From Nitrospinaceae bacterium (GTDB taxonomy: Bacteria; Nitrospinota; Nitrospinia; Nitrospinales; JACRGP01): DNA of 64,000 nucleotides. Shown here piece after piece: positions 49,090 to 64,000 of the stretch. The position numbers were made by a program, and so were the translations under genes. The notes below the pieces were generated by a model. It saw nothing but the letters and a program-made list of their open reading frames with translations. It had not been told where the DNA came from and ran no database searches. Where the stretch lies: positions 6,549-70,548 of the forward strand of contig JAJDBD010000049.1 in assembly GCA_029261575.1 (NCBI GenBank). Reading direction: 5' to 3'. Each line of letters opens with the position of its first letter. Within the stretch, counting starts at the first letter, position 1.

Positions 49090-49875
49090 CTACCGTTTCA
49101 AAATGCTCTGAGAAAAATATTTGGCGGGAATCTCGGCGTCAAATTCGATTGAATCGTATTCGTAAGTGGTCTTGGTATTTTCCTTCAACAGATCGCGGAA
49201 GATCATTTTCTTGGGGAACAATCGGTCGCCGGTTGGCCGGTAATCCTTGAAATGTACGTTCTTTAACAGTTTGCCGCTTTTGGCGTACATTTCCTCCATC
49301 AACACAGTTTTCTTTTCGGGATCGATCCAAAGTTTCCGGCTCTGGTAGGTCGTGGTTTTATCGTTAGCGGTCAACAACAACACCACACAGGGCACGCCCT
49401 CGAACTCCTCGAATTTTTCAACAGAGGATTTATAGTTCCGGCTCAGCATTTTGTCCTCCATCATATCCTCGTAGGACAAATCGCTTCCCATCATGGATTG
49501 CCTCAGCATGTGACCGGCGATTAAAATTTTTCGGTCGGTGCGGGGAGTGTACATCCAGAGCTTGGAGCGGGCTTTAAGCATTTTGACGCCGCGCTCCCTG
49601 GGCGGGTTGAGATAAACGCTATAGGAACGCTCCACGCCCTCCATCCAGGTTTGCATCTGTAAAGTTCTTTCCCGCCGGCCATTGTCGACAATCAGGCGAC
49701 CTTCGATAATTTTTGTCTGCGACCACAAATTATCGTCCACGCGCCGCAACAATTCATCCGGGTCGATATCCTGCGCGAATGCGCCCTGCCCAAATGCGCC
49801 TAAAAGAACCAGGGCAAAAATCGCGAAGAAACTTTTAACTTCTCCGCTGGTTGAGCGAGGGTTGGAAAATTTCAT
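49090..49875 (-). CDS. LolA-like outer-membrane lipoprotein-sorting family protein
   Basis: 261 aa with a signal peptide. Layout and motifs (RTLQMQTWMEG...YLNPPRERGVKMLK...LWMYTPRTDRKILI) are typical of LolA_like proteins that accompany FtsX-type ABC permeases. Confidence 0.6.
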   Translation of the reverse strand: MKFSNPRSTSGEVKSFFAIFALVLLGAFGQGAFAQDIDPDELLRRVDDNLWSQTKIIEGRLIVDNGRRERTLQMQTWMEGVERSYSVYLNPPRERGVKMLKARSKLWMYTPRTDRKILIAGHMLRQSMMGSDLSYEDMMEDKMLSRNYKSSVEKFEEFEGVPCVVLLLTANDKTTTYQSRKLWIDPEKKTVLMEEMYAKSGKLLKNVHFKDYRPTGDRLFPKKMIFRDLLKENTKTTYEYDSIEFDAEIPAKYFSQSILKR

Positions 49876-49883
49876 TGAGTCCT

Positions 49884-51182: not shown

Positions 51183-52348
51183 TGAATGGCTTTCCCGCGC
51201 AAAGCCAGGGCGGGATCGAGGCGGGATATTTTTCTGACGGGAAGCCAGGCGATAAAAACCATGATCCCCACTATAACGCACAGCGAGGCGGCGACTTCCC
51301 TGGGCCGGACGTCTAACCGGATGCTCTCGTAAACCGGAATGGTGGATTCCTTAAGGTGAGAGATATCCAACCCGGTCTGCTGAAACCACATAAACAGGGG
51401 AACGCCAATGACAAAAGCGGCAAGAACCGCTCCCAGAGAGGCCAGCCCTCCCTCCAGAACAAAAAGTTTTTCGATCCTGGCGGCGTTCATGCCCAGCGCC
51501 ATCAGGGTTCCGATCTCTTTTTGCCTTTTAAAAACGTTCAGTATCTGGGTGTTGAATACGCTGGTTCCCGCCAGAAACATCAGGATGCACCACAGAATGA
51601 AGGCGTTCCTTCGGTCGTGCTTTAGAAGGGTCAGCAAATCGGCCATGAGTTCATCCACGCTCCTGAATTCCATTTCCGCAACAGATCCCAGATGATCGCG
51701 CACGGCCACCCAACTGACCTCCCCCGGCCGGGACGTGATTTGCCTCAAATGGTCCAGCCGCATCCAGATGATCCCCTCGTCGATTCTGGGATTGAGAAAA
51801 TCGGCTACGTCGACCACCTCGGCGTCCAGCGCGTCGACGGCGCCAAACCCATCCCGCCACTTTAATATGACGGAGTCGCCCTTTTTAAGTTTCGCCTTGC
51901 GGGCCATTTTTAATCCGATCACAACGGGAATGACGTCGGAGACTTTTGACGGTTTTGATTTCAGGCCCTGCAAAGGCAGGGTCAAAAGTTCCTGGTCGAT
52001 TTCGACGCCGCGCAATTGAACGGGATAGAGCCTGTTGTTTGGGAAAATTTGCCCCTGAAGAACCAGAATCTCCGCCTTGTCCGATGGAGGCAGACGTTTC
52101 AAGGAAACGGGCGCGGGTTGAGTCGAGTCCTCCCACTGGGTGGGATCCAACAAGTCGAACCCAGGGACGACATAATGTCCGCCCGCCGCGTCGGTATTGA
52201 CCATATTGCGGGTTCCTTGCTTCTGAAATCCGTTGAGCAGGGATAAATTAAAAACCACTGCGATCATGGTGGTCGCAGTGATCAATACATTCAAAAAAGC
52301 GCGCAAACCTTGCCGGAGAAAATTTTTAAGGGCGACCTGAAAGATCAA
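51179..52348 (-). CDS. ABC transporter permease, FtsX/MacB-type
   Basis: 389 aa. N-terminus FQVALKNFLRQGLRAFLNVLITATTMIAVVF, a periplasmic core domain and a C-terminal FtsX bundle. TTG start. Confidence 0.8.
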   Translation of the reverse strand: MIFQVALKNFLRQGLRAFLNVLITATTMIAVVFNLSLLNGFQKQGTRNMVNTDAAGGHYVVPGFDLLDPTQWEDSTQPAPVSLKRLPPSDKAEILVLQGQIFPNNRLYPVQLRGVEIDQELLTLPLQGLKSKPSKVSDVIPVVIGLKMARKAKLKKGDSVILKWRDGFGAVDALDAEVVDVADFLNPRIDEGIIWMRLDHLRQITSRPGEVSWVAVRDHLGSVAEMEFRSVDELMADLLTLLKHDRRNAFILWCILMFLAGTSVFNTQILNVFKRQKEIGTLMALGMNAARIEKLFVLEGGLASLGAVLAAFVIGVPLFMWFQQTGLDISHLKESTIPVYESIRLDVRPREVAASLCVIVGIMVFIAWLPVRKISRLDPALALRGKAIQ

Positions 52349-52374
52349 AGGCGGGATCCAAATAAGAGTAAAGG

Positions 52375-52400
52375 CGGGCGGGGAATTGACTCCCCGCCCG
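52375..52400 (-). other. Strong GC hairpin between the CBS gene and the first FtsX permease gene
   Basis: A 10-bp perfect stem CGGGCGGGGA / TCCCCGCCCG with a 6-nt loop. The flanks are only moderately T-rich on either strand, so it may be an attenuator or a processing/stability element. Confidence 0.4.
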
Positions 52401-52423
52401 AAATTTTTAATTATCGATTTAGC

Positions 52424-52816
52424 TCACTCGGTGGTCCTAAAGGATTTCACGAAAAATGAAACCAAATCCCTGATCGACAACATGCCGACAATTTTATCTT
52501 CTTCCGTGACAGCCAAATGCCGAATTTTATTTTTCCGCATGAACTCGTTGGCTTCCTCGACCGGCAAATAACGATCCATGCTTTTAACCGGAGAGGTCAT
52601 CATTTCCGCCACCAACATCTCTTCGGGACTCTTCCCAACGGCGACGCATTTTCGAGTGATATCGGTTTCGGTGATGATGCCGATATAATCATCCAGGCTC
52701 TTCACCAGAAGAGACCCGACATTTTGGGCCTGCATGTATTGAGCGGCCTCCTGAACTGAAGACTCGGACTCAACAGACAAGGGGGGTGCGCTCATATAAT
52801 CGCCGACGTCGTCCAT
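52424..52816 (-). CDS. CBS-pair domain protein
   Basis: 130 aa with two CBS motifs (VGDYMSAPPLSV...VGSLLVKSLDDYIGIITETDI; VAEMMTSPVKSM...IRHLAVTEEDKIVGMLSIRDL). Confidence 0.8.
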   Translation of the reverse strand: MDDVGDYMSAPPLSVESESSVQEAAQYMQAQNVGSLLVKSLDDYIGIITETDITRKCVAVGKSPEEMLVAEMMTSPVKSMDRYLPVEEANEFMRKNKIRHLAVTEEDKIVGMLSIRDLVSFFVKSFRTTE

Positions 52817-52928
52817 TTTCCTTCTCCTTCAAATTGAAGTTAAAATCAATTTTCAACTCGGCTACATTATATATTTTGTAGAAGGCAAAGGAATCAAAAT
52901 TTGAACTGTGGCGATCATTTTACGAAAT

Positions 52929-53609
52929 TTATTTTTTTGCCCTGTCCCACACAATACTGCCGTCCTCCAGGCGAATCTCCCGTTTTATATAACGCGTGAC
53001 CTTTTCATCATGAGTTGAAAAAATAAAAGCGGCGTCGTATTTTTTATTGAGGTTCAGCATCAACTCAAGAATGTTGTAGGAGTTTTCGGCGTCCAGGTTG
53101 GCGGTCGGTTCGTCCGCCAATATCAATTTGGGCCGTTTGACCAAAGCCCGGGCGATAGCGGCCCTTTGACACTGCCCCCCGGAAAGCTCGTGCGGCTTTT
53201 TATGGGCCTCCGGTCCAAGCCCTACCTGATCGACCAGGGCCATGATCCTGTCGCGAACCTCCAACTCCTTTTCGCCGTTTAAAAGCAGGGGAAACAGGAC
53301 GTTTTCATAAACGGAGTGAACCGGCAGTAGATTGTGGGATTGGAAAACAAATCCAAAATACTTCCTGCGCAGGGCAGAAAGCTCATCGCGGGACCTATCG
53401 GAAAATTTGATTCCATCCAGAATGATTTCTCCAGACGTTGGCCGGTCCAAACCGCCGATGAGATTCAACAGCGTGGTCTTTCCCGATCCAGACGGTCCGA
53501 CAAAAGCCATGAACTCGCCCTCCTCGACATTTAGACTGACGTCCTGAAGAGCGCGGAATTCCTGCTCGCCGACCTGATAAATTTTCCCTACGCTTTTAAG
53601 TTCCAGCAT
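52929..53609 (-). CDS. ABC transporter ATP-binding protein (LolD/MacB-ATPase-like)
   Basis: 226 aa. Walker A GPSGSGKTTLLN, signature LSGGQCQRAAIARAL and Walker B LILADEPTANLD. Confidence 0.92.
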   Translation of the reverse strand: MLELKSVGKIYQVGEQEFRALQDVSLNVEEGEFMAFVGPSGSGKTTLLNLIGGLDRPTSGEIILDGIKFSDRSRDELSALRRKYFGFVFQSHNLLPVHSVYENVLFPLLLNGEKELEVRDRIMALVDQVGLGPEAHKKPHELSGGQCQRAAIARALVKRPKLILADEPTANLDAENSYNILELMLNLNKKYDAAFIFSTHDEKVTRYIKREIRLEDGSIVWDRAKK

Positions 53610-53630
53610 GGACCTGCAACGCCAAATGAT

Positions 53631-54752
53631 TTAAATATAATAAATCAGGGTAAGACCTATTGAGGATTCTGTGCCATTAAAAACCGGTCCCTTGCGGAAA
53701 AGGCGGCTTGGCGAGTCGCTCCCATTCACGTTCCCGCCCCAATGGCCGTTCAAATAGAGGTAGGTTTGCTTCCTCAGAAAATATTCGATTTGCGGGGCAA
53801 TTTGAAATCCGCCGTCGCGAAGATCGAAAAAACCAAACAGCCTCCAAACCAAGTCCACCCCGAAGGGTTGATCCATCATAACTCCGACCTGGTGAAGGGT
53901 TGTATCGTCAAGAGGGATTAAAGGATCAGGATTGTTTTTGGCCGATAAAAAATATTCAACCAAAACATGCAAACCTTCGCCCACGTTCAGAGTGTAATCG
54001 GCGCCCCAAACGGAATCAAAGCGCAGGTTATCTTCAAAGCTCTCAACGCCGAAGTCGAAGCGCGCTTCGTTCCAGTACCCAATCCCATACTCCCCTTTAA
54101 GGTGGTAGCCCAATTGGAAAAGCTCCCGGTCGAACTCCGGTAGAAACTCCAGGTCCGTCTCCGGGTGGTACTGAAAAACCAGGCCGGTTTCCACTCCGCT
54201 CACTTGCGACTCAATTCTTCCCCCGGCAACGACGCGGCTGTCCTTATCGGCGGAAACCAACCAACTGTCGATAAACGTATCGGGACTCAGAAAAACAGTC
54301 GTCCGGAGACCGTCCACTCCGCGCGTCAACGGAACCACGCCGGAAATATTACGGTTGTCGAAAAATCCCAGCGGTCGGAACAAAGCCCCGGCGCCAAAAA
54401 GAATGGCCTGCCGTCCGCCCCGGATTTTTACCGTTTCGTTTCCCGCCCTCAACCAGGCCCGGAAAAATTCAGATTCAAAGTCGTCGCTAAAACCCGCCTG
54501 CTCTCTGGGTCCTCCCGTGATGCGGTTGTCGCCTTTCAACTCATAATCCAGACTCCATTTGTCTTTACGAAAAACATTGCCCACCACTCCCAGGCGCAAT
54601 TCCAGGTCCCGGTCGACGGCGTCAAAACCGTCGGGAGACTCAAAAATATATTGCGCGCCGGCGCGCGCCCACCCTTCAAAAGAATAATCGAAAGCTCCGC
54701 ACGCTGGCGGAAGAGCCAATCCTACAAAAAAAATAAAAACCAGAACTTTCAT
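53631..54752 (-). CDS. Predicted outer-membrane beta-barrel protein
   Basis: The ATG at 54752 gives signal peptide MKVLVFIFFVGLALPPACGA. The sequence shows alternating amphipathic beta-strand patterning throughout and an aromatic C-terminus LTLIYYI. The track start TTG at 54854 overlaps the upstream gene. Confidence 0.5.
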   Translation of the reverse strand: MKVLVFIFFVGLALPPACGAFDYSFEGWARAGAQYIFESPDGFDAVDRDLELRLGVVGNVFRKDKWSLDYELKGDNRITGGPREQAGFSDDFESEFFRAWLRAGNETVKIRGGRQAILFGAGALFRPLGFFDNRNISGVVPLTRGVDGLRTTVFLSPDTFIDSWLVSADKDSRVVAGGRIESQVSGVETGLVFQYHPETDLEFLPEFDRELFQLGYHLKGEYGIGYWNEARFDFGVESFEDNLRFDSVWGADYTLNVGEGLHVLVEYFLSAKNNPDPLIPLDDTTLHQVGVMMDQPFGVDLVWRLFGFFDLRDGGFQIAPQIEYFLRKQTYLYLNGHWGGNVNGSDSPSRLFRKGPVFNGTESSIGLTLIYYI

Positions 54753-54850
54753 TTTATGGGGGGGGATTCCTGCGGCGTAGAAAATGAAAAAGGATTGCAT
54801 GCCGCTGGGGACAGGGAGCGACTTTAACCCGAGGTTTTCTAAATTCAGAC

Positions 54851-55693
54851 TCAAATATCTTTCCAGGTTTCCTCAATGATTTTCCAGTTCCCGCCCTCGT
54901 TTTTCCATATCAGGGTTTTTTCCCCAAGATCAAAAAACTGGTTGGAAGAATACTTTTGCATGAAAGTCATTTTTACCCGGTCGTCGCCCTTCAAAATTTT
55001 AATGTCTTCAAACTCCAAACTGATGTCGTTATTTTTCATCAACGCCTGGATTCTGGATTCTTTCCACTCTTCCAGGGTTTCTCCATCATGTTGAAAATCG
55101 TCAGAATAAAAATCCAGGTAGGCGTAAACGCTTTTCTCCTGCCAGGCTTTTTTCCAGGACAGGAAAAGGGAAACCACAGTATCCACCGATTCGTTGAGCG
55201 GACGAAATTTAAATTCATCGTCCGTCGCCGCTCCGTCTTGAGGGCGCTTGACGGCTTTAAGGTTTCGCGTCTCTCCCTGTTTTGGCGCTGGCGAGGGAGG
55301 GTTGGGTCGCCTAAAACTTGATTTGACGACCAGAGCGTGGATGTTTTCCTTTTTGAGCAACATGGATTCCATATTGCGGGCTTTTTGTTTGGAGGGGAAA
55401 GGTCCCATCATCACCTTAAACCAGTCGTTCCTCTTATGCGGCGTTTTAAGACGAAGGCGATATCCCTTTTCCTCAAGCTTGCTCATGAAGTTTTCCGCAT
55501 TGGATTTTTTTTTGAACGCGCTCAGTTGGACAAAATAGGCGGACTCCCGCAACGCTGGTTTTTCCTCCGCCTGGGCGACGGAAAAATTTTGACCGAAACC
55601 AAAGGCAACGGCCGCGAGCCAAATCAGCGCTTTCGTCGTCGGCCTCGTTTTTAAACCTGCCGACATAAAATGTTTAACCGCCAAATCATTCAA
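54851..55693 (-). CDS. SPOR domain protein with C-terminal NTF2/SnoaL-like domain
   Basis: Signal/anchor sequence, SPOR fold YFVQLSAFKKKSNAENFMSKLEEKGYRLRL...FKVMMGPFPSKQKARNME, and a C-terminal about 110-aa alpha+beta segment (SWKKAWQEKSVYAYLDFYSDDF...WKNEGGNWKII). The start is uncertain (TTG 55693 or ATG 55666). Confidence 0.6.
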   Translation of the reverse strand: MNDLAVKHFMSAGLKTRPTTKALIWLAAVAFGFGQNFSVAQAEEKPALRESAYFVQLSAFKKKSNAENFMSKLEEKGYRLRLKTPHKRNDWFKVMMGPFPSKQKARNMESMLLKKENIHALVVKSSFRRPNPPSPAPKQGETRNLKAVKRPQDGAATDDEFKFRPLNESVDTVVSLFLSWKKAWQEKSVYAYLDFYSDDFQHDGETLEEWKESRIQALMKNNDISLEFEDIKILKGDDRVKMTFMQKYSSNQFFDLGEKTLIWKNEGGNWKIIEETWKDI

Positions 55694-55715: not shown

Positions 55716-56204
55716 TTAAAGCAATTTCGAAAGATAGGGTATCAGTTGATCGGAGCCTACCGATGGAACCCGCGCGCTAATGACCCCATCCTTATCGATG
55801 ATCACGACCGTAGGCATGTCGCGTTGAATGTAGGATTTATTTACCGACATGTCCGGATCGATATAATAGGGAAAATGGATCGGATTGGGAAATTTATCGA
55901 GATAATCCTGAACGGCCTTTTTAGAATCGCCGTTGGTATTTATCCCGACAATCGCCAGTTTATCTTCGCCGATGGCTTTGCGGACCTTGTCGAATTCCAT
56001 CGCTTGATTCATGCAAGGGACGCAGATGTGAAACATTCCCAACAAAACGACCTTTCCCTTCAGGGAAGAGAGCGTTAATTTTTTTCCATCCAGCGAAGTC
56101 ACGGTAAAATCCGGAGCAGGGACGCCCTTTTGGGGTGCCTCTGCTTGCCCGATGGCGGGGCACAACCAAAACGCCATCGCCAAAATTATAATTGTCTTTC
56201 GCAT
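55716..56204 (-). CDS. TlpA-like periplasmic thiol:disulfide oxidoreductase
   Basis: 162 aa with a signal peptide. Thioredoxin-fold layout APDFTVTSLDGKKLTLSSLKGKVVLL with redox motif C-V-P-C. Confidence 0.7.
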   Translation of the reverse strand: MRKTIIILAMAFWLCPAIGQAEAPQKGVPAPDFTVTSLDGKKLTLSSLKGKVVLLGMFHICVPCMNQAMEFDKVRKAIGEDKLAIVGINTNGDSKKAVQDYLDKFPNPIHFPYYIDPDMSVNKSYIQRDMPTVVIIDKDGVISARVPSVGSDQLIPYLSKLL

Positions 56205-56418
56205 ACGAACCTCTTTTGGGGAATAAAAGCCCGGTTAATAAGGTCTATTGTAAAACTTTTTTATCAGTTTAAAGGAGGACGGTTTAATTGGGAAGGCAAT
56301 TATTGAAAACAAAATATAACTTCCCATCGAATTGGTTTCTAAAAAAATCAAAAGACCGTCTCATAAAAATGCAAACAAGTTTTCGCCCGTTTTGGCGATT
56401 TAGACCAAGAGAGTCCGC

Positions 56419-56446
56419 TTGACTTAGCGATCCATTTATATAAAAT
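56419..56446 (+). promoter_or_regulatory. Sigma70-type promoter candidate for the cupredoxin/cytochrome operon
   Basis: TTGACT (56419-56424), a 16-nt spacer, then TAAAAT (56441-56446). It would give a roughly 190-nt leader before the ATG at 56640. Confidence 0.4.
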
Positions 56447-56639
56447 AAACACCAAGCAGAACGTTTTATGGGTGGTGGTTATGCGTTGTCAACGAGCGGC
56501 TTGTAATCCTCATCAATCCATCGAAAGGACTCTTGATTTCGCATAAATTTCCTTTAAAAAAACCGCGAGAAGTCGTCTTATCCAGCAACCCGCATATCAG
56601 GCGCCCGGGCAAGGGGCCAAATTTTGGGAGAATAAAGTA

Positions 56640-57503
56640 ATGAAAAATCTTACCGCTATATTTCTTATTCTGCCGACGGTTCTCTTAACCTTTTCGACGC
56701 CTGTTCTTAGTTACCAGGAAATCGACGTCATGAACGGCGGAACTCTAAAGGGTAAAACCCGTCTTGTTGGAGAGGTTCCAGGCCCTCGCGTCTACCATCT
56801 CGTATTATTCCCTAATATGGACATGTGCGCCGAGGTCAAGAAAGACGACGAGGTGTCCACCGACCTGGATAATATGAACCGTCTTTTAAACGATTTTGTT
56901 GTGAGTCCGAGCGGAGCGTTTAAAGACGTGGTGATCACGCTGGAGCATGTCGAGGCGGGCAAACCTTTTGACAATCGCCCCGTGGATTTTCTCGCGGAAA
57001 ACTGTACCTTCTACCCCTACGTCAATGTGGTGAGGCAGGGAGCGAAGTTCACCGTGGACAATCAGGACGCAGTCATGCACAACAGCCAGGTTTATCAAAG
57101 CGAACGCGGCAAAATCATACTCAACATCCCAATTCCCGCCGAAGACGTTTCCAGCGGAGAGATTAGATACCAAAAGGATTATCGCCTGATGCAGATGATT
57201 TGCGGCATGCACGAGTTCATGCAAACCTGGGGATACCGGATTCAAAATCCCTATTACTCCATCACCAAAAACGACGGCGTTTTCAAAATAGACAACATCC
57301 CCCCTGGGGAATATGTCGTCAACGCCTGGCATAATTTGATGAAATCCCAATCTAAAAAAGTCACCATTTCGGAAAACTCCGTCGTCGAAATAGATTTTGA
57401 ATTTAACGGCGACAAGGTGCTCCGCCCAAATTACGAAACCATCAAATCAGGAAGAATAAAAAAGGACGCCAAGCCGCATAAACGCAATCCAAATAAATTC
57501 TGA
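56640..57503 (+). CDS. Secreted cupredoxin-like protein with C-terminal Ig-like beta-sandwich domain
   Basis: Signal peptide. Cupredoxin pattern FYPYVNVVRQGAKFTVDNQDAVMH(147)N and C(188)-G-M-H(191)-E-F-M(194) (nt 57201-57221), then NPYYSITKNDGVFKIDNIPPGEYVVNAWH. 1-nt TGATG overlap with the next gene. Confidence 0.6.
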   Translation: MKNLTAIFLILPTVLLTFSTPVLSYQEIDVMNGGTLKGKTRLVGEVPGPRVYHLVLFPNMDMCAEVKKDDEVSTDLDNMNRLLNDFVVSPSGAFKDVVITLEHVEAGKPFDNRPVDFLAENCTFYPYVNVVRQGAKFTVDNQDAVMHNSQVYQSERGKIILNIPIPAEDVSSGEIRYQKDYRLMQMICGMHEFMQTWGYRIQNPYYSITKNDGVFKIDNIPPGEYVVNAWHNLMKSQSKKVTISENSVVEIDFEFNGDKVLRPNYETIKSGRIKKDAKPHKRNPNKF

Positions 57504-59461
57504 TGGCCCGATTGTTCCGCTTCAGCAACCGCCCGCAACGGATGTTTATTGAGACAGCCTGTACTTTATTAGGCGCCGCGTTCTTTCTATTATCCGGAAG
57601 CGCCCTCCCCGCCCTCGCGTTTAATCCGGACCCAAAGGACGCGCCAAAATCTATCGTGGTAAAAGGCAAAACGGTGGATTTGACGTCCTTGAAAAATCCC
57701 TACCAAAAAGGTTCCTCCAAATATCCAGAGCATCTTGAAGAAGGCGCGGAAGTCTATTTTAGAAACTGCTACCTATGCCATGGGGATTTGCTGGATGGCA
57801 AGGGCGTTTTTGGCGACCGTTTTTTTCCGCCTCCCGCAAATTTTCGGCATCCTGCCAACGGCGTCATATACAAGCCCCAGGCCTATGCCTACTGGAGGAT
57901 CATGAAAGGCGGCGCGGGCCTTCCAGAAAAATTGAACCCCTGGGATTCCGCCATGCCCGCCTGGGAAGACCAACTGACCGAAACCGAAGTCTGGGAAGTC
58001 ATCGCTTTCATTTATGAAACCGCAAAAGAAATCTGGGTGGAAGAACCTGAAACAAAAACCAAACCCAGCGTCGAAAGAGGACGGGAAGTTTACCAGAACC
58101 ATTGCGCGGCTTGCCACGGCGCCACGGGAAAAGGGGACGGGGTCGCGGCGCCTTATTCCAGCCCCAAACCCAGGAACCTGACCAAAGGACAATACAAACT
58201 GCGCACCACGCGCTACGGAAAAATCCCCACCGACGAGGATATATTCAAAATAATCACCCTAGGTTTGAATGGAACCGCCATGCCGGGGTGGAAACATTTA
58301 CCCGAATCCGACCGCTGGAGCCTGGTCGCCTATCTCAAAACCCTGGCGAAAAAATTTGAAAAATTTAAAAAGCGCGGGAAAAAATTAGAAATTATATCGG
58401 TTCCGAAGCCGCCAGCCAAAATAACTGTGGAAAGCATTGAACGCGGCAAAAAACATTTCATGGTCAATTGTTCCGGATGCCATGGAGTGAAAGGCCGCGG
58501 AGACGGCAATAAAACTCTAAAAATAGTCGACATTGAAACCGACGCCCTGTGGCCGAGAAACCTGAGCAAATCCTGGACTTTTAAACGCGGCGCTTCGAGA
58601 GAAGACCTGTTCCTCACTTTGAGAACTGGACTTTACGGTTCCGCCATGCCCAGATTTTCAAACAAACTCCTCAAGGACGAAGAGCTTTGGGACCTTATCC
58701 ATTTCGTGCAAACCCTTTCTCCCGGCGAAAAACCCAAAGTCACAAAACAAATTTCCGTCAAAAAAGTAAGCGGCGCAATCCCCATCGATCCCACCGACGA
58801 CTTTTGGAAAAACGTCGCCGCGCATTTAATACCCCTGGGCGGGCAAATTATAAAAAACGAAAAACTTTATTTTTCCACCACCGACAGTTTAAATATTAAA
58901 GCCGTTCACAACGGCGACGAGATCGCTTTTCAAATCATTTGGGACGACCCGGATTTTGATCCGGTATTGCAAAAAACCGACAGCGTGAAAAGATCGCCCC
59001 CGCCCCCCATTCCGGATTTTTTAATCGGCCAGGTGGAGCCAGAAGAACAGAGGGAAATTCCCGCGGTTCCCCAGGAGTTCCCCGATGCCGTCGCCCTGCA
59101 ATTTCCCGTTCCCGACCCGGCCAAAAGCGGCAAGCCATATTTCCTTAACGGACAAGACGATAGACCCGTGAACCTGTGGAAATGGGAATCGCACCCCAAT
59201 AAAGTTAAAAAACTAAAAGCCCAGGGACTTGATGTTTTAGAATTGGTAAAAGACGCCCTGGTGGAATCCAAAGCGCTTTACGAATACGGACAATACCGGG
59301 TGACGCTGAAAAGGAAAATGACCTCCAAAAACGCGGGGGATACGCAGTTTAAATCGGGTAATAAAACCGTCCCCATCGGGTTCAACGTTTGGAACGGAAC
59401 GGCGGGAGAAACGGGAACCAAAATGACCGTTTCCAGTTGGTTCGATTTGGCGTTGGATTAA
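57503..59461 (+). CDS. Tri-haem c-type cytochrome fused to an EB_dh-like (DMSO-reductase gamma-subunit-type) domain
   Basis: 652 aa with an N-terminal anchor/signal sequence. CxxCH motifs at nt 57767-57781 (CYLCH), 58103-58117 (CAACH) and 58469-58483 (CSGCH). The C-terminal about 240 aa carry IPIDPTDDFW...NIKAVHNGDEIAFQIIWDD...DAVALQFPV...PVNLWKWES, a pattern typical of the EB_dh fold. Confidence 0.65.
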   Translation: MARLFRFSNRPQRMFIETACTLLGAAFFLLSGSALPALAFNPDPKDAPKSIVVKGKTVDLTSLKNPYQKGSSKYPEHLEEGAEVYFRNCYLCHGDLLDGKGVFGDRFFPPPANFRHPANGVIYKPQAYAYWRIMKGGAGLPEKLNPWDSAMPAWEDQLTETEVWEVIAFIYETAKEIWVEEPETKTKPSVERGREVYQNHCAACHGATGKGDGVAAPYSSPKPRNLTKGQYKLRTTRYGKIPTDEDIFKIITLGLNGTAMPGWKHLPESDRWSLVAYLKTLAKKFEKFKKRGKKLEIISVPKPPAKITVESIERGKKHFMVNCSGCHGVKGRGDGNKTLKIVDIETDALWPRNLSKSWTFKRGASREDLFLTLRTGLYGSAMPRFSNKLLKDEELWDLIHFVQTLSPGEKPKVTKQISVKKVSGAIPIDPTDDFWKNVAAHLIPLGGQIIKNEKLYFSTTDSLNIKAVHNGDEIAFQIIWDDPDFDPVLQKTDSVKRSPPPPIPDFLIGQVEPEEQREIPAVPQEFPDAVALQFPVPDPAKSGKPYFLNGQDDRPVNLWKWESHPNKVKKLKAQGLDVLELVKDALVESKALYEYGQYRVTLKRKMTSKNAGDTQFKSGNKTVPIGFNVWNGTAGETGTKMTVSSWFDLALD

Positions 59462-59462
59462 C

Positions 59463-59483
59463 CAGCGTGCCGCTGGACCCAGT
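59463..59483 (+). repeat. 3'-UTR hairpin motif family 2, copy 2 (after cytochrome c-EB_dh stop)
   Basis: TAA-A-CCAGCGTGCCGCTGGACCCAG, containing the hairpin CCAGCG-TGC-CGCTGG. The 21-mer is identical to the minus strand of 25067-25087. Confidence 0.55.
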
Positions 59484-59526
59484 AGGCTTAGCTTAGCGGC
59501 TGGCCTGAAAACTACAGGGGCGTTCT

Positions 59527-60816
59527 TTATTTTCCGGCGGTTGATTCTTCCTTCAAAGGTATTTTCAAACTTTCAAGAAACGCCAAGACGTCTCGAATTT
59601 CCTGATCGCTCAAACGATCCTTGAAATCCTTCGGCATCAGGGAATCCTCTTCAATTTCAATTTTCTCGATATCTTTTTTATCTATTTTTTTAGCGCTCCC
59701 CTCGCCGTCCACGATTTCCACAAACTCGTCGCTTTCCTTTTTTTTGATTCCTTTAACAACCTCGCCAGTCTTGGTTACAACCACCGACGAATTAAACCCG
59801 ACCGTGATCACCGAATTGGGTTCTATAATGGATTCCAATAAAAAATGAGGCGTCCGACTGCTTCCCACAAAACTCAGGTTGGGACCCACCCCCCCGCCCT
59901 TCCCCTGAACCGTATGGCATTTCGCGCATCCGGCCTTGCCTTTGGCGTCGAAGAACAAGGCCTCGCCGTTTTGAGCGTTCCCTTTCCCCTCCAAAAAAAT
60001 CTTAAGTTCTTCCCATTCTTCGAGCGGGTCTTCAGACTCCCCTTTGAGAATGGACAAAAAGAAAGCGATCGCCGCCGCCTCTTTCTCGTTCAACCCCAAA
60101 TTAGGCATCTTGGTATTGGGCTTGACCCTTTGGGGATCGTGCACCCAGATATACAACCACTCTGGATTGTATAAATAACCCGCCCGGCTCAAATCCGGCC
60201 CGACCTTCCCTCCTTCGTCGTCGACCGAATGACAGGCGAAGCAACTCTTTTTCTTAAAAAACAAATGCTCGCCAAGCTGAATCAAAGCGTTCCGGCTTTT
60301 CTCATCGCGATACAGTTCTAAAATTCGATCCCTGTCGAGAGTGGTGACCGGTTCAATGGTGGGTCGATTCTCCTCGGCCTCGGGGGGAAGTTCTACCTTG
60401 TTATTGTCGTCCCCGGCAAGTTTTCGAACATAAGCCACCAGAGACCAGATTTGCCGTTCGGAAAAAGTAAAACCAAATACCGGCATCAAATGGGATTTTC
60501 TTACCCCCACCCCGCCAAATTTAATAACGCGAAAAATCTGCCTATTGTCTTTTTTCCGGATGAAATTGATATCGGATAATTCCGCCGGCTCCTTGTCCAA
60601 AAACTCCGCGTTAAAGCCGTCCCCGCCGCCTTCCTTTCCATGGCAATGAATGCAATAGTGGCGGTACAAAACCTCGCCCTTTTTCCAAAGGGGCGTCGCT
60701 CCAGATTCGCTTTCAATCCCTGCGGGAGCGCCGGCAAACGCCGAACTCGCGAAATTTAAAACGCCCAAAAGGATACAAAGTAAAAACAGCGAGTTTTTCA
60801 CTAATTTATTTTTCAT
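59527..60816 (-). CDS. Secreted tri-haem c-type cytochrome
   Basis: 429 aa with a signal peptide. CIHCH (nt 60640-60654), CFACH (60229-60243) and CAKCH (59914-59928). The last two haem motifs are followed by G-x-x-G-P-[DN]-L, and one by a KMPNLGL Met-ligand loop. Confidence 0.75.
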   Translation of the reverse strand: MKNKLVKNSLFLLCILLGVLNFASSAFAGAPAGIESESGATPLWKKGEVLYRHYCIHCHGKEGGGDGFNAEFLDKEPAELSDINFIRKKDNRQIFRVIKFGGVGVRKSHLMPVFGFTFSERQIWSLVAYVRKLAGDDNNKVELPPEAEENRPTIEPVTTLDRDRILELYRDEKSRNALIQLGEHLFFKKKSCFACHSVDDEGGKVGPDLSRAGYLYNPEWLYIWVHDPQRVKPNTKMPNLGLNEKEAAAIAFFLSILKGESEDPLEEWEELKIFLEGKGNAQNGEALFFDAKGKAGCAKCHTVQGKGGGVGPNLSFVGSSRTPHFLLESIIEPNSVITVGFNSSVVVTKTGEVVKGIKKKESDEFVEIVDGEGSAKKIDKKDIEKIEIEEDSLMPKDFKDRLSDQEIRDVLAFLESLKIPLKEESTAGK

Positions 60817-60901
60817 GCCATTGGTTGGAAAAAATTTCAGCTAATTTACCATCAATAATTTTTTGAATCAAAATATAAAATCGGGCGCCATTAATCACGG
60901 G

Positions 60902-60934
60902 AAAAAAAAGGGGGACCCCAAAATGGAGTCCCCC
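60902..60934 (-). terminator. Rho-independent terminator after the multicopper-oxidase-like gene
   Basis: The minus strand reads GGGGGAC-11 nt loop-GTCCCCC followed by TTTTTTTT (plus-strand A8 at 60902-60909). Lies 27 nt downstream of the stop. Confidence 0.7.
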
Positions 60935-60960
60935 TGGATAAAACAAACCGCTACGAAAGT

Positions 60961-63900
60961 TTACCGATTCATCGACAGTTTATCGTCGTTGTCGATGGAA
61001 GCGGTGGAACCGCCCTTCCCGCCTTTACCACTCAGCGGAAGGATGGAGCGCTCGCCTTTCGGATACACTTTCAAATAACCCCACTGGCCGGCCTGCTGAT
61101 ACGGGGTCCGCGCGTTCAACCACAGATACGTACCCGGCGTTCCATACGTCCCGCCGGCGTTAAAGTACGCCTGGATATACTCGTTGCCGCCAAACTCCTC
61201 GACGTCGATCATATCCGAGTTCTCCTGGTTGATGTGCCGACGCCACTGATGGCCGTCCACGTTGAACATCTGGTTCTGCTCGTTGTGCGCGCCGAACACG
61301 TTGATCATCACGCGGTCGCCGGTATGAGCTTTCAACACCGGAGTCGCAGGATCCGAATCCGCAGCCACGCAAGGTGTGAACATATTACCCAGTTCACAAC
61401 CCGCGTCCTCGCGGTACAACCACGGTTCCAACCGGTAGTTCACGCCCGTCAATCCCGCAACGTTCTGCAGGTAAGGCATGAAAGACGTGCCCAGGATGTT
61501 GTCCTCGTCCTGAAAGTACAACGCGAAATCGCGGTAGTTGTCGATGTGCGCGTTCTCAGGATGAGACTTGTCCACGATCACGTCCGCTTTCCAGGAATTG
61601 CCCAGGCTGATGTCCTTGCCCGTTTCCGGATCGCGGTACACCGATCCGCGGGGACCGATGATGATCGCGCCGAACATGCCGTCGCGAACGTTCGTCGTCA
61701 GGTTGCCGAAATCCCAGATCAACGCCGCATTCTGCTTGTAATCAGGATGCGCGTAGAACGTATAGGTCTTCGACTTGCCGGGAGCCACCGTCTGGTCGCC
61801 CGGGTTGTTCCCGACGTTGATTCCCTGAGACGACTTGGGATCGAACGCTATATTGTTCACGTGAATCGAAGCGTTGCCTTTTTTCAACTTATTGGCAAGT
61901 TTCACTTTCACGCAATCGCCGATGTTGGCGCGCAGGGTCAAGGGATGCGGCATGACGTTGTCGTCCGCAACCTTGGTCAGCTCGCCTTCTAACGCGAAGA
62001 TCTTGCCGTTGGCGTTGGAAACCAACAGCTTCCGTTCGAAATCCACCTCGATGAAACCGTCTTCCACGTTCGGGTTGAAGGTCAAAGCCTTGTCGATGGC
62101 CGCCACGCTGAAGCTCTTCATCGGCGCGCCCTTCGGACAAACGCTCTTGTTGGAAGCGGGAATCTTTTCGAAACCCGGCAAAACTTTCAGGCTCTTCTGC
62201 AACTTGTCATGAACCCGGATAATACCCCAGGAGCCTTCAGATAGATGCGAGGTGCGACCGTCGTAATACAGGTAGTCGCCCGCCATCTGCTGGTAGCCGC
62301 CGGCGGTGGTCGCCAGGTCGTAACGTTCCGCAATACCGACATGCAAGGCATTGGTAACGCGGGAATCCCGGTCGTAACGTTCGGGACGAAACCCGTGACC
62401 GGAGGTCACAAAGGTATGCGTCTCGTTCATCATGCCGTGTAGAACGCGGAACACAATGGTATCGCCCAGATAAGCGCGAATCATTGGCGTGTCCGGATCA
62501 CGATGCGTCTTACTGCTAAACATCTTCGAAGCGTCCGGGTTGGCCTTCAAGCGAGCCGTCAGGGACGCCGCGCGGAAGTTGAACCCGCCGCCCGTGGTGT
62601 GCGTGCCGCCGTTCAACATCGGAAACGCAACCTCGAGCATGTCGCTGGGCATCTGGAACGAAATCGACTGTCCAGCGGCGATGGCGTTCTTCCGGCTCAT
62701 TCCCGGAGGATTGCCTTCGGTAACCAACTGCGCCGTGTGCGGAACCGTGTCGTGCAACTGCACCACGATCTCGCGGAAACTGCCATTCCGGCCAAAAGCG
62801 ATCGGCTCGGTGCCATGAATATCCGCCACCGGGCCGCTACGAATTTCCTTCCCGGTTTTGGGATCATGATAGGTCGATCCCCAAGGCTCGACGATGGTCG
62901 AACCGATACCGCCGTGCGGCCAGGTCGTAGCGCCGAAGGCGTGATCGTGCCAGAACACCAAGCCCATATCGACGTCCACCCACCAGCGATAGCGAACGTA
63001 TTCCGTGCTCGCAATCTCGCCCTTCGCATGACTGTGCGTCAGACCTTCGGTGAAAGTGACTTTATATACGCCGTCTTTGGCCTTGGTCGCCGGAGGATCC
63101 ATTTTCGCAATCCAACGCGCGTCGTGCTTGTTGGGAACTTCGATTCCAACAATGATATCCGCGCCTTCGTGAAACGGAGTCGCGTGGTCGGCCATTTTAA
63201 TGGTCACCGTCTTGTCGCCTGCCTTCGCGGCTTTCACCAGCTTGGCGTTCATCGGAACCGGCATACCCACATGATGGCCGTCCTTCATCTTCTTATCGAA
63301 CTGCCTGTAAGACCTCATGGACTGGTCGTAGGAAAATCCAGAGATAACCCCGTCCGAAGCCTGATTGTCAAACTGAAAGAAATGCGGATGGATGTTCAAC
63401 TTCGACATTTGAAAGTTGGTGAAGTCGTCGTCGTTCCATTCGCTGGTCAAAAGAAGGTCCACGCAATCGTAAACGTTGGCCCGGATGACCAAGGGGATGG
63501 CCTTTTTAGGATCGGCCTTAACCTCTGCCATCTGCTCATCGATCACGTAAATCAAACCGTATTTGTCGATGATAGGAGGCGTGTCTCCATACGCGCCGGA
63601 AAGCTCGATCGGCGTGTTGATGAAGGTCAGGTTGTACTGCTTGCGACCGGCGCCTTCGGGACAAAGACTCCAACGTCCCTGCTCGCCAGGTTTCGCCGGA
63701 GACGAGGTCTCCATGTTGGCCGGAGTTTTATTACTTCCAGACTCCGTGACCAACTGGCCGTTGTCCTTGGCAATATGAAACGGCTCCAGCCAGGGAGCGC
63801 CGCCGTGATGACGCGCAAACGGAACCCGCTTGCCAAAATGCGGGGTCAGGTGCGGCCACGCCAGCTTACCCGTGAGCGGGCTGAACTGGATCGGATGACG

Positions 63901-64000
63901 CTTGCCGGGATGCGGCGACTTGTACTTCGCCATCGGATACGTCGCCTCGCGCTCGGACAACGCCTGGGTTCCTTTCCAGGCATAATCCCACACGGTTCCG
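60961..64000 (-). CDS. Large multi-cupredoxin-domain, multicopper-oxidase-like protein (5' end beyond window)
   Basis: The frame stays open to base 64000, giving >1010 aa. MCO L1-like NIH(202)PH(204)FFQFDNQASDG (nt 63382-63390) and L2-like FWH(349)DH(351)AF...GGIGSTIVEP (nt 62941-62952). Degenerate L2-like repeats DGMFGAIIIGP and GSWGIIRVH. No H-C-H motif in the visible part. Confidence 0.55.
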   Translation of the reverse strand, partial: GTVWDYAWKGTQALSEREATYPMAKYKSPHPGKRHPIQFSPLTGKLAWPHLTPHFGKRVPFARHHGGAPWLEPFHIAKDNGQLVTESGSNKTPANMETSSPAKPGEQGRWSLCPEGAGRKQYNLTFINTPIELSGAYGDTPPIIDKYGLIYVIDEQMAEVKADPKKAIPLVIRANVYDCVDLLLTSEWNDDDFTNFQMSKLNIHPHFFQFDNQASDGVISGFSYDQSMRSYRQFDKKMKDGHHVGMPVPMNAKLVKAAKAGDKTVTIKMADHATPFHEGADIIVGIEVPNKHDARWIAKMDPPATKAKDGVYKVTFTEGLTHSHAKGEIASTEYVRYRWWVDVDMGLVFWHDHAFGATTWPHGGIGSTIVEPWGSTYHDPKTGKEIRSGPVADIHGTEPIAFGRNGSFREIVVQLHDTVPHTAQLVTEGNPPGMSRKNAIAAGQSISFQMPSDMLEVAFPMLNGGTHTTGGGFNFRAASLTARLKANPDASKMFSSKTHRDPDTPMIRAYLGDTIVFRVLHGMMNETHTFVTSGHGFRPERYDRDSRVTNALHVGIAERYDLATTAGGYQQMAGDYLYYDGRTSHLSEGSWGIIRVHDKLQKSLKVLPGFEKIPASNKSVCPKGAPMKSFSVAAIDKALTFNPNVEDGFIEVDFERKLLVSNANGKIFALEGELTKVADDNVMPHPLTLRANIGDCVKVKLANKLKKGNASIHVNNIAFDPKSSQGINVGNNPGDQTVAPGKSKTYTFYAHPDYKQNAALIWDFGNLTTNVRDGMFGAIIIGPRGSVYRDPETGKDISLGNSWKADVIVDKSHPENAHIDNYRDFALYFQDEDNILGTSFMPYLQNVAGLTGVNYRLEPWLYREDAGCELGNMFTPCVAADSDPATPVLKAHTGDRVMINVFGAHNEQNQMFNVDGHQWRRHINQENSDMIDVEEFGGNEYIQAYFNAGGTYGTPGTYLWLNARTPYQQAGQWGYLKVYPKGERSILPLSGKGGKGGSTASIDNDDKLSMNR

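What the first reader, a model, noticed from the sequence alone, without database searches (positions are those of the whole stretch)
56419..64000. Convergent operon pair encoding only secreted copper and haem proteins: candidate undescribed periplasmic redox module
Seen in sequence: a plus-strand pair, 56640..57503 and 57503..59461 (1-nt TGATG overlap), converges on a 65-bp spacer with a minus-strand pair, >64000..60961 and 60816..59527. The three complete products all begin with signal-peptide-like N-termini. The four products are: (a) a cupredoxin-like protein with a complete type-1-Cu-style ligand set (H147, C188, H191, M194) plus an Ig-like sandwich; (b) a 652-aa protein with three CxxCH motifs fused to an EB_dh-like domain; (c) a 429-aa protein with three CxxCH motifs; (d) a >1010-aa multicopper-oxidase-like protein. 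No quinone-interacting membrane subunit, molybdoenzyme, known substrate-specific dehydrogenase or regulator lies inside the cluster. Inference: this could be a soluble or peripherally anchored electron wire of six c-haems plus a possible b-haem and a blue copper centre, connected to a multicopper centre. Plausible roles are periplasmic O2 reduction fed by cytochromes c, or oxidation of a metal or small substrate (Mn(II), Fe(II), Cu(I), phenolics) with electrons passed to the cytochromes. I do not know of a characterised system with this four-part composition.
Basis: partly seen in the sequence, partly recalled or inferred. Interest (0 to 1): 0.75.

Follow-up and report, generated by a model that had tools for sequence, protein, structure and literature searches.

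The report
Nitrospina copper oxidase, cupredoxin, cytochrome cluster
This is a marine nitrite-oxidiser's copy of a gene cluster already noted in Nitrospina gracilis: a giant manganese-oxidase-like copper enzyme next to small blue copper proteins and haem proteins, abundant in the ocean but still of untested function.

Summary
All four ORFs, the TGATG overlap, the 65-bp spacer, the signal peptides and the metal motifs are present.

- **Organism and locus.** The window is from a Nitrospinaceae bacterium. The locus is orthologous to N. gracilis NITGRv1_620037-620042, described in 2013.
- **D** is a truncated ~1,640-aa multicopper oxidase, distantly homologous to Bacillus MnxG. Its homologs keep one type-1 copper site and a trinuclear cluster.
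- **A** belongs to a widespread family annotated only as "carboxypeptidase regulatory-like". It is an amicyanin-like type-1 cupredoxin fused to a transthyretin-like domain, with invariant His-Cys-His-Met.
- **B** is the published "alt_NxrC4".
- **C** contains a Kustd1711-like dihaem module; Kustd1711's haems sit near +350 mV.

The block recurs across Nitrospinota. The partner that stays with the oxidase in both phyla is the cupredoxin, not the cytochromes. A conserved terminator separates D from C, so they are not a simple operon.

Most likely this is a high-potential periplasmic electron-transfer module ending in O2 reduction by the oxidase. Mn(II) oxidation is the main rival. No function has been tested. 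The cluster is real and ecologically important, but it is a new member of a known, uncharacterised kind.

The parts
55716..56204 (-). E: exported thioredoxin-fold protein (AhpC-TSA/Redoxin, CVPC motif). It is divergent from A. It is a possible maturation factor for the Cys-containing copper and haem proteins. Its membership in the module is only inferred.
   Evidence: Pfam AhpC-TSA E 9e-18 and Redoxin E 9e-17. It holds the same position next to the A genes in many Nitrospinota loci.
56419..56446 (+). Promoter-like site TTGACT-16-TAAAAT, about 190 nt upstream of A.
   Evidence: 10 of 12 matches. The number of such sites in the region is no higher than in shuffles (4 found, 4.5 expected), so this is weak evidence.
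56640..57503 (+). A: Sec-exported amicyanin-like type-1 blue copper protein. The cupredoxin core spans about residues 100-200, with ligands H147, C188, H191, M194 and conserved C63/C122. It is fused to a C-terminal transthyretin/CarboxypepD_reg-like beta-sandwich (about 205-257).
   Evidence: Ligands are invariant. The family profile hits 5fc9 at E 2.5e-6 and amicyanin at E 7e-6. The C-terminal domain is shown. A belongs to the same subfamily as the gene immediately downstream of the oxidase in Nitrospirota.
57503..59461 (+). B: exported trihaem class-I cytochrome c (CxxCH at 89, 201, 323; distal Met 151, 260, 382) fused to an EB_dh/DOMON-like domain (about 430-650). It is the ortholog of N. 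gracilis alt_nxrC4.
   Evidence: Pfam and NCBIfam. Residues 188-410 match 6h5l_B at E 2e-41; EbdC and NxrC match at E 1e-8 and 3e-7. Motifs are invariant in 116 orthologs. The Met ligand is not conserved. The start overlaps A's stop.
59462..59526 (.). 65-bp spacer between the convergent stops of B and C.
   Evidence: The pattern scan found no terminator-like site here. Only a modest fold was predicted.
59527..60816 (-). C: exported trihaem cytochrome c. It has an N-terminal cbb3-subunit-III-like haem domain followed by a Kustd1711-like module (residues 231-418).
   Evidence: Pfam Cytochrom_C E 4e-30 and TIGR02603 E 6e-42, above cut-off. 7zs0_A (Kustd1711) matches at E 1e-24. Kustd1711's haems are at about +350 mV.
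60909..60935 (-). Intrinsic terminator directly after D: a 12-bp stem with 8 G-C pairs, followed by a T-run.
   Evidence: An equivalent GC hairpin plus T8-13 follows D in nine related loci.
60961..64000 (-). D: the C-terminal 1,012 codons of a ~1,640-aa MnxG-like multi-domain multicopper oxidase. The 5' end lies beyond the window. The fragment holds trinuclear-cluster motifs L1 (H204, H206) and L2 (H351, H353). The type-1 site and L3/L4 lie in the missing N-terminal part.
   Evidence: PF07732. Homologs are listed. 9bxa_A (MnxG) matches at E 4e-93. All four copper motifs are invariant in 12 full-length homologs. Homologs carry signal peptides.

Best explanation
**What is shown.**
- The region is a Nitrospinaceae copy of a conserved locus.
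- D is a Sec-exported multi-domain multicopper oxidase of the MnxG lineage. It has one intact type-1 copper site and one trinuclear O2-reducing cluster.
- A belongs to a family of amicyanin-like type-1 blue copper proteins. This family is genetically tied to the oxidase in two phyla.
- B and C are soluble or N-terminally anchored trihaem cytochromes c. They are homologous to carriers encoded in nitrite-oxidoreductase gene clusters. The one measured relative has haems near +350 mV.

**What is inferred.**
- These proteins form a high-potential periplasmic electron-transfer branch.
- Electrons from nitrite oxidation, or from the cytochrome c pool, pass through B and/or C to the cupredoxin A.
- From A they pass to the type-1 copper of the oxidase.
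- The oxidase reduces O2 to water in the periplasm without pumping protons.
- This would serve to scavenge O2 and avoid reactive oxygen species, or to poise the carriers, in a microaerophile that lacks superoxide dismutase and catalase.
- Mn(II) may be an additional substrate.
- The direction of flow and the pairing of partners are not shown.
For: **Oxidase competence.** All four Cu motifs, including HCHxxxHxxxxM, are invariant in 12 full-length homologs from both phyla.

**A is an electron-transfer cupredoxin.** The ligand set is invariant with amicyanin spacing C-x2-H-x2-M. Profile hits go to amicyanin and other type-1 cupredoxins.

**Genetic coupling of cupredoxin and oxidase.**
- 28 of 47 Nitrospinota D copies and 21 of 23 Nitrospirota D copies are followed by an A-like gene.
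- The window's B-linked A clusters with the first-downstream-of-D gene of Nitrospirota.
- The A and B reading frames overlap.

**High-potential, NXR-type carriers.**
- C matches Kustd1711, whose haems are at about +350 mV. Kustd1711 is encoded on the anammox nxr cluster, which also encodes blue copper proteins.
- B is alt_nxrC4. All three of its haems have His/Met ligation.

**Synteny.** The whole block recurs in Nitrospinota.

**Field data.** The Nitrospinae oxidase is the second most abundant Nitrospinae oxidoreductase. It peaks at the oxygen-deficient-zone cline, correlates negatively with O2, and co-occurs with NxrA at r = 0.64.

**Comparative point from the literature.** Anammox bacteria have the carriers but lack the oxidase.
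Against: - No experiment or expression data for this organism is available.
- A conserved strong terminator separates D from C.
- B and C are absent near D in Nitrospirota and in 8 of 26 Nitrospinota loci.
- The A-B pair can lie about 45 kb from D.
- The only characterised relative of D oxidises Mn(II) directly with O2 and needs no protein donor (literature cited).
- Periplasmic O2 reduction conserves no energy, which sits oddly with very high abundance.
- The b-haem ligand set in B is incomplete.
- Both structure predictions failed, with pLDDT 53 and 37. No docking or fold evidence exists.
Confidence: 0.4

Rival explanations
1. Mn(II) oxidase. D oxidises Mn(II) to Mn(III)/Mn(IV) with O2, as Bacillus MnxG does. 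The Mn(III) gives protection against reactive oxygen species, or the reaction drives Mn-oxide formation. The A-type proteins would be accessory or copper-handling subunits analogous to MnxE/F. B and C would be neighbours serving nitrite oxidation.
For: - D is homologous to MnxG over the whole length of the solved MnxG chain, E 4e-93.
- This is the published hypothesis for N. gracilis and for the field protein.
- In the oxygenated South Pacific the protein correlates with catalase.
- The terminator after D suggests an independent transcription unit.
- Manganitrophaceae, which oxidise Mn, all keep 1-3 copies.
Against: - D is far below the NCBIfam MnxG equivalog cut-off: 104-109 bits against 3,100.
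- No MnxE/F-like small genes are called next to D in N. gracilis. This rests on the gene list; no homology search for MnxE/F was run.
- A cupredoxin with a full type-1 site is an electron carrier, not a known metallochaperone. Its strict linkage to D is not explained by a metal-substrate oxidase.
- Authors who work on these organisms warn that homology is a poor predictor of Mn oxidase function.
Confidence: 0.25
2. Juxtaposition without coupling. The A-B unit and C are electron carriers for nitrite oxidoreductase only. The oxidase, with its own A' paralog, is a separate function that happens to lie next to them in Nitrospinaceae.
For: - A-B occurs as an isolated pair far from D.
- C and B are missing from Nitrospirota D loci.
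- A terminator follows D.
- Homologs of B and C are encoded in or linked to nxr clusters.
Against: - The whole block is kept in the same order across many Nitrospinota genomes at 43-64% protein identity.
- The B-linked A subfamily is the one placed directly after D in Nitrospirota.
Confidence: 0.2
3. Energy-conserving metal oxidation. Mn(II) or another metal is oxidised at the oxidase's type-1 site. Electrons are diverted through the cupredoxin and the cytochromes to a membrane terminal oxidase instead of to the trinuclear cluster.
For: - The D+A pair is core in the Mn-lithotrophic Manganitrophaceae.
- One copy reaches the 95th expression percentile in Mn-grown cultures.
- The authors state that a periplasmic carrier would be needed for such a role. 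A-type cupredoxins could be that carrier.
Against: - All trinuclear-cluster ligands are intact, so internal transfer to O2 is expected.
- Expression in strain Mn1 varies 60-fold between replicate Mn-grown cultures and tracks a neighbouring sigma-54 regulator. That is unlike a core catabolic enzyme.
- Nitrospina is not known to grow on Mn(II) (my own knowledge).
Confidence: 0.07

Closest known systems
Nitrospina gracilis 3/211 locus NITGRv1_620037-620042 (Lucker et al. 2013, PMC3578206)
   Same: - Gene order is orthologous: oxidase, A-like, trihaem cytochrome c, then convergent alt_nxrC4, A-like, A-like, followed by the redoxin and ABC genes.
- Identities to the window proteins are D 78%, A 61%, B 51% and C 50%.
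   Different: - The window lacks the A' gene between D and C. It matches genomes in which a second tandem D copy is followed directly by C.
- It also has only one A gene upstream of B.
- The paper treats the oxidase (ROS defence) and alt_nxrC4 (NXR subunit) separately. It gives no biochemical data.
Bacillus sp. PL-12 Mnx complex (MnxG with MnxE/MnxF; PDB 9bxa)
   Same: - Both are multi-domain multicopper oxidases.
- The matched stretches together span nearly the whole solved MnxG chain, E 4e-93.
- The L1-L4 copper motifs align.
   Different: - D-family proteins are about 400 aa longer, with an N-terminal extension and insertions.
- They are far below the NCBIfam MnxG cut-off.
- No MnxE/F-like small genes are called next to D. 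Instead the neighbours are type-1 cupredoxins and cytochromes c.
- D is exported to the periplasm of a Gram-negative nitrifier, not to a spore coat.
Electron carriers of the anammox/Nitrospira nxr gene cluster (Kustd1711 dihaem cytochrome c, alternative NxrC, blue copper proteins)
   Same: - C residues 231-418 are homologous to Kustd1711.
- B's best characterised-genome hit is a Kuenenia haem c + EB_dh protein.
- Both systems combine high-potential cytochromes c with blue copper proteins.
   Different: - No nxrA or nxrB lies within the 64-kb window; no ORF of 700 aa or more is found elsewhere in it.
- B and C each carry an extra haem domain.
- Anammox clusters lack the oxidase.
- I did not test whether the anammox blue copper proteins belong to the A family.
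Amicyanin (methylamine dehydrogenase - amicyanin - cytochrome c551i chain)
   Same: - The cupredoxin domain has His / Cys-x2-His-x2-Met ligands.
- The family profile matches amicyanin over its whole domain.
- Both are encoded next to their presumed redox partners.
   Different: - A carries an extra ~75-aa N-terminal region with a conserved Cys pair and a C-terminal transthyretin-like domain.
- It scores below Pfam cupredoxin thresholds.
- Its partners are different.
Nitrosomonas europaea ncgABC-nirK cluster (two-domain multicopper 'blue copper oxidase' plus two cytochromes c). This comparison is recalled from my own knowledge and was not tested here.
   Same: A nitrifier gene cluster that joins a multicopper oxidase with c-type cytochromes. 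The oxidase was reported to oxidise cytochrome c.
   Different: - The oxidase there is a small two-domain type, not a MnxG-like protein.
- There is no A-type cupredoxin.
- It is linked to NirK.

Membership tests
Multicopper oxidase (type-1 Cu plus trinuclear cluster) | Four copper-ligand motifs: L1 HxH, L2 HxH, L3 HxxHxH-like, L4 HCHxxxHxxxxM | tested here: met
   The window fragment has L1 (H204, H206) and L2 (H351, H353). L3 (FHSHHPHGG) and L4 (HCHVAHHYVAGM) lie in the part beyond the window. They are invariant in 12 full-length homologs of 60-84% identity.
Multicopper oxidase (type-1 Cu plus trinuclear cluster) | Pfam Cu-oxidase domain above the gathering score | tested here: met
   PF07732 scores 43.9 bits against a cut-off of 21.
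MnxG manganese oxidase | Homology to MnxG along the whole MnxG chain | tested here: met
   Full-length homolog P0002 against 9bxa_A gives E 3.9e-93, with matched stretches that together span MnxG residues 4-1212.
MnxG manganese oxidase | NCBIfam equivalog NF041487 at or above its cut-off | tested here: not met
   Scores are 104-109 bits against a cut-off of 3,100 for three full-length homologs, and 63.9 bits for the window fragment.
MnxG manganese oxidase | Accessory subunit genes mnxE/mnxF adjacent to the oxidase gene | tested here: not met
   In N. gracilis the upstream gene is an HtrA-like protease. The downstream genes are A-like and cytochrome c. No small genes are called beside D. This rests on the gene neighbourhood only; no homology search for MnxE/F was run.
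MnxG manganese oxidase | Mn(II) to Mn(IV) oxidase activity | not testable with these tools
   This needs a biochemical assay. The literature states the activity is unconfirmed for Nitrospinae.
Type-1 (blue) cupredoxin, amicyanin-like | His ... Cys-x2-His-x2-Met ligand set, conserved across the family | tested here: met
   H147, C188, H191 and M194 are invariant in 94 locus-derived sequences. They are kept in 97 of 107 aligned sequences (106 representatives plus window A) at 23-59% identity.
Type-1 (blue) cupredoxin, amicyanin-like | Significant similarity to solved cupredoxins | tested here: met
   The 65-sequence profile hits 5fc9_A at 2.5e-6, amicyanins at 7e-6 to 4e-5 over amicyanin residues 20-104, and the NirK cupredoxin domain at 1e-5. 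In the 5fc9 alignment, made with the smaller 14-sequence profile, His147, Cys188 and His191 align with HN, C and H of the target.
Type-1 (blue) cupredoxin, amicyanin-like | Pfam cupredoxin model (PF00127 or PF13473) above threshold | tested here: not met
   The window protein has no hit. Only 4 of 65 family members have weak PF00127 hits, best E 0.007.
Type-1 (blue) cupredoxin, amicyanin-like | Greek-key beta-sandwich fold | tested here: inconclusive
   The AlphaFold2 model has mean pLDDT 53. Only the C-terminal sandwich (206-256) is confident.
EB_dh / gamma subunit of type II DMSO-reductase-family enzymes (NxrC-like) | EB_dh domain above the Pfam gathering score | tested here: met
   PF09459 scores 70.2 bits against a cut-off of 33.3.
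EB_dh / gamma subunit of type II DMSO-reductase-family enzymes (NxrC-like) | TIGR03477 (haem b subunit) at or above its cut-off | tested here: not met
   The score is 99.8 bits against a cut-off of 169.85.
EB_dh / gamma subunit of type II DMSO-reductase-family enzymes (NxrC-like) | Met and Lys axial ligands of haem b (EbdC Met108 and Lys201; residue numbers from my own knowledge) | tested here: not met
   The Lys aligns with K640, which is conserved in at least 70% of orthologs. The Met position aligns with N548 in the conserved motif PYFLNGD.
EB_dh / gamma subunit of type II DMSO-reductase-family enzymes (NxrC-like) | Encoded next to the molybdoenzyme alpha and beta subunits | tested here: not met
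   No ORF of 700 aa or more is found in window positions 1-56000. Neighbours in relatives are A-like, C and D.
Kustd1711-like dihaem cytochrome c | Sequence homology to the solved protein | tested here: met
   C residues 231-418 match 7zs0_A residues 115-316 at E 1e-24.
Kustd1711-like dihaem cytochrome c | High haem potentials (about +350 mV) set by bound Ca2+ | not tested
   I did not examine the Ca-site residues. The potential requires electrochemistry.

The most novel reading that the evidence does not exclude
The MnxG-like oxidase, together with its dedicated A-type cupredoxin, and in Nitrospinota the NXR-type cytochromes B and C, is a new kind of periplasmic respiratory O2 reductase that takes electrons from proteins. 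It would explain how Nitrospinota and Nitrospirota dispose of nitrite-derived, or in Manganitrophus Mn-derived, high-potential electrons at very low O2. It would also explain why the protein is so abundant at the edges of oxygen-deficient zones.
Probability: 0.15. Interest if true: 0.85.

Novelty: new member of a known kind. Interest (0 to 1): 0.45.

Why it matters
Nitrospinota carry out most nitrite oxidation in the ocean. Their MnxG-like oxidase is reported as their second most abundant oxidoreductase in Pacific metaproteomes, yet its function has never been tested.

- The oxidase is always tied to a family of amicyanin-like blue copper proteins that has gone unrecognised; it is annotated as "carboxypeptidase regulatory-like".
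- The same cupredoxin subfamily is translationally coupled to an NXR-type cytochrome in Nitrospinota.
- The same oxidase-cupredoxin pair is core in the manganese-lithotrophic Manganitrophaceae.

The outcome bears on three open questions: how nitrite oxidisers cope with low O2 and reactive oxygen species, a proposed N-Mn coupling in the ocean, and the unresolved manganese-oxidation machinery of Manganitrophus.

Tried and rejected
1. **Extending the contig.** I tried to recover the 5' end of D. Look-ups of C and B returned only short Logan contigs of 1.5 and 4.6 kb from SRR15505513. The 72-kb source contig is not retrievable.
2. **AlphaFold2 of A.** With 22 orthologs the mean pLDDT was 53 and the cupredoxin part was unresolved.
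3. **AlphaFold2 of the D fragment.** The mean pLDDT was 37, so I ran no fold search.
4. **Single-sequence searches of A.** Pfam, NCBIfam and PDB searches found only the C-terminal sandwich. The cupredoxin signal appeared only with family profiles.
5. **Rfam.** No RNA family was found in 56100-61100.
6. **Promoter scan.** It gave no more sites than shuffled sequence.
7. **Taxonomy of distant A-family members.** One cluster look-up timed out. The others mostly returned unnamed metagenome proteins, apart from Nitrospira and one Gammaproteobacteria MAG.
8. **Iodide oxidase.** I considered it for D. A paper states that N. gracilis cultures showed no iodate production. I did not pursue it.
9. **Tat export of D.** I rejected this for Nitrospinota because no twin-arginine motif occurs in their signal peptides. 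Two Nitrospirota homologs do have RR.

Full report
**Observation.**
- The ORF list confirms four genes: A at 56640-57503 (+, 287 aa), B at 57503-59461 (+, 652 aa), C at 59527-60816 (-, 429 aa) and D at 60961 to beyond 64000 (-, 1,012 codons in the window).
- A's TGA and B's ATG share one base. The convergent stops of B and C are 65 bp apart.
- A, B and C each have a single N-terminal hydrophobic, signal-like segment and no other membrane-like stretch.
- Pfam and NCBIfam give the following:
  - three cytochrome c domains plus EB_dh in B (E 3e-19);
  - three cytochrome c domains, including a TIGR02603 haem domain above cut-off, in C;
  - Cu-oxidase_3 in D;
  - for A, only a sub-threshold CarboxypepD_reg-like C-terminal domain.

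**Organism and prior description.**
- Homologs of D are about 1,640 aa. They are 78-85% identical in Nitrospinota (N. gracilis, Ca. Nitrohelix, Ca. Nitronauta). They are about 60% identical in Nitrospirota (Nitrospira, Nitrospiria, Ca. Manganitrophus). The window therefore comes from a Nitrospinaceae bacterium.
- In N. gracilis the gene order is: oxidase, A-like, cytochrome c, then convergent trihaem-EB_dh, A-like, A-like, then redoxin, a porin-like gene and ABC/FtsX genes.
- The N. gracilis genome paper lists the oxidase (NITGRv1_620037) as a "possible manganese oxidase" under defence systems. It lists the B ortholog (NITGRv1_620040) as "alt_nxrC4", with 3 haem c and a haem b-binding domain.
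- That paper speculates on ROS protection through Mn(III). It notes that the oxidase lies with NXR-associated carrier genes.
- A Pacific metaproteome study calls this protein Nitrospinae "MnxG". It is the second most abundant Nitrospinae oxidoreductase, it peaks at the oxygen-deficient-zone cline, and its function is unconfirmed.
- The cluster is therefore known but uncharacterised.

**Synteny test.** I fetched 73 loci around D homologs from species-representative genomes. I then searched their six-frame ORFs with the window proteins.
- *Nitrospinota.* The order D, (A'), C, then convergent B, A, (A''), then redoxin and the ABC genes recurs widely.
  - Of 26 loci with at least 6 kb downstream of D, 18 carry B.
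  - Several genomes have two or three tandem D(+A') copies.
  - Ten D copies are followed directly by C, as in the window.
- *Nitrospirota.* Of 23 D copies, 21 are followed by one to three A-like genes. None has B or C nearby.
- *An unlinked case.* In one Nitrospinota lineage the A-B pair sits alone about 45 kb from D.
- The stable units are therefore D+cupredoxin and cupredoxin+B. C is a Nitrospinota-specific neighbour.
- Average-linkage clustering of 94 A-like sequences places the window's A and its orthologs in the same subfamily as the first gene downstream of D in Nitrospirota (shared motif QMICGMHEFMQS/TWG). The Nitrospinota D-adjacent A' forms another subfamily. This is a distance clustering, not a phylogeny.

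**Protein A.**
- H147, C188, H191 and M194, together with C63 and C122, are invariant in all 94 sequences.
- A search of 1.84 billion representative proteins found 8,373 relatives.
- Of 107 aligned sequences (106 full-length representatives among the best 150, plus window A), 97 keep the four ligands at 23-59% identity.
- A 65-sequence profile matches, in the PDB, a type-1 copper protein (5fc9, E 2.5e-6), amicyanins over their whole domain (E 7e-6 to 4e-5), cupredoxin domains of nitrite reductases, pseudoazurin and plastocyanin.
- In the 5fc9 alignment, made with a smaller 14-sequence profile, three of the ligands (His147, Cys188, His191) align with the target's HN and C..H positions.
- The C-terminal domain is transthyretin-like.
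The family is annotated only by its C-terminal domain.

**Protein D.**
- A full-length homolog matches the solved Bacillus MnxG chain at E 4e-93, in stretches that together span nearly the whole MnxG chain.
- All four copper motifs are invariant. L3 and L4, which include the type-1 Cys, lie in the missing N-terminal third. L1 and L2 lie in the window fragment.
- Later cupredoxin-like regions have lost their ligands (IHVNN, IWDFG; read directly from the sequence).
- All 12 homologs have Sec-type signal peptides.
- The proteins score far below the NCBIfam MnxG cut-off.
- No MnxE/F-like small genes are called next to D.

**Proteins B and C.**
- B's three CxxCH motifs and three distal Met residues are invariant in 116 orthologs.
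- B residues 188-410 match a Kuenenia dihaem cytochrome (6h5l_B, E 2e-41).
- In B's EB_dh domain, the Lys ligand of EbdC/NxrC aligns with K640. The Met ligand aligns with Asn in a conserved PYFLNGD motif. Haem b binding is therefore unproven.
- C residues 231-418 match Kustd1711 (E 1e-24). Kustd1711 is a dihaem cytochrome of the anammox nxr cluster with haems near +350 mV. Its authors note that the cluster also encodes blue copper proteins.

**Transcription units.**
- A strong terminator-like hairpin with a T-run lies between D and C.
- The same feature follows D in nine related loci. D therefore probably ends its own transcript.
- A and B are translationally coupled.
- No Rfam family occurs in the region.

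**Interpretation.**
- Best reading: a high-potential periplasmic electron-transfer module. NXR-type cytochromes and an amicyanin-like cupredoxin feed the oxidase, which reduces O2.
- Main rival: the published manganese-oxidase idea.
- Next rival: simple juxtaposition of NXR carriers and an independent oxidase.
- In Ca. Manganitrophus strain Mn1, one D copy ranges from 35 to 2,200 expression units across replicate Mn-grown cultures. It tracks a neighbouring sigma-54 activator. This looks inducible rather than constitutive.
- Both structure predictions failed.

**Verdict.** The finding is real, correctly read and biologically interesting. However, it is an ortholog of a locus already in the literature. 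The new elements are the identity and reach of the cupredoxin family and its strict link to the oxidase.

Noticed in passing
L005, L006, L008, L009, L010, L013, L046, L051 (for example L009 1698-21843): Many Nitrospinaceae genomes carry two or three tandem copies of the 1,640-aa oxidase gene, each about 80% identical to the window's D. The upstream copies are followed by an A' cupredoxin gene. The window's arrangement (D directly followed by C) matches the last copy, so a further D+A' copy probably lies beyond position 64000.
   Followed up: partly
window 49090-55693: A gene set of Lol-like appearance lies next to the cluster: LolA_like, two FtsX permeases, a CBS protein, an ABC ATPase, a 407-aa protein with no Pfam hit that I take to be an outer-membrane protein, and a SPOR + Cds6_C/NTF2-like protein. 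It is syntenic with the cluster in many Nitrospinota genomes. Any relation to the redox module is unknown.
   Followed up: partly
L012, L025, L043: Contigs encoding D homologs at 79-82% identity to the window sit in MAGs labelled Candidatus Poseidoniales archaeon, Verrucomicrobiales and Acidobacteriota. These are most likely mis-binned Nitrospinaceae contigs.
   Followed up: no
window 59144-59164 (B residues 545-551) and B orthologs: The EB_dh-like domain of B has a conserved PYFLNGD motif where EbdC and NxrC carry the haem-b Met ligand. The domain may bind haem differently, or not at all.
   Followed up: partly
window about 63010-63250 (D fragment residues about 250-330): The only confidently modelled part of the D fragment (pLDDT 60-87) is a small beta-domain between copper motifs L1 and L2. 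It falls in a stretch that did not align with MnxG, P0002 residues 851-958. It is an insertion of unknown role.
   Followed up: no
L004 7695-14914 (Ca. Manganitrophus sp. SA1) and Table S6 of PMC9040806: In Manganitrophus the oxidase lies downstream of a PAS/sigma-54 activator and a DUF4149/CopD-like membrane protein, and near a Rieske/cytochrome b gene pair. In strain Mn1 the oxidase and the activator rise together about 20- to 60-fold in two of seven Mn-grown cultures.
   Followed up: partly
window 62001-64000: G+C is 0.569 in the D gene, against 0.47-0.52 in the adjacent 8 kb.
   Followed up: no
P0076: A partial 1,021-aa Nitrospinae protein matches 85% of the D fragment at 80% identity and also carries precomputed Kelch-repeat Pfam hits. 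This could be a variant domain architecture or a gene-call artefact.
   Followed up: no
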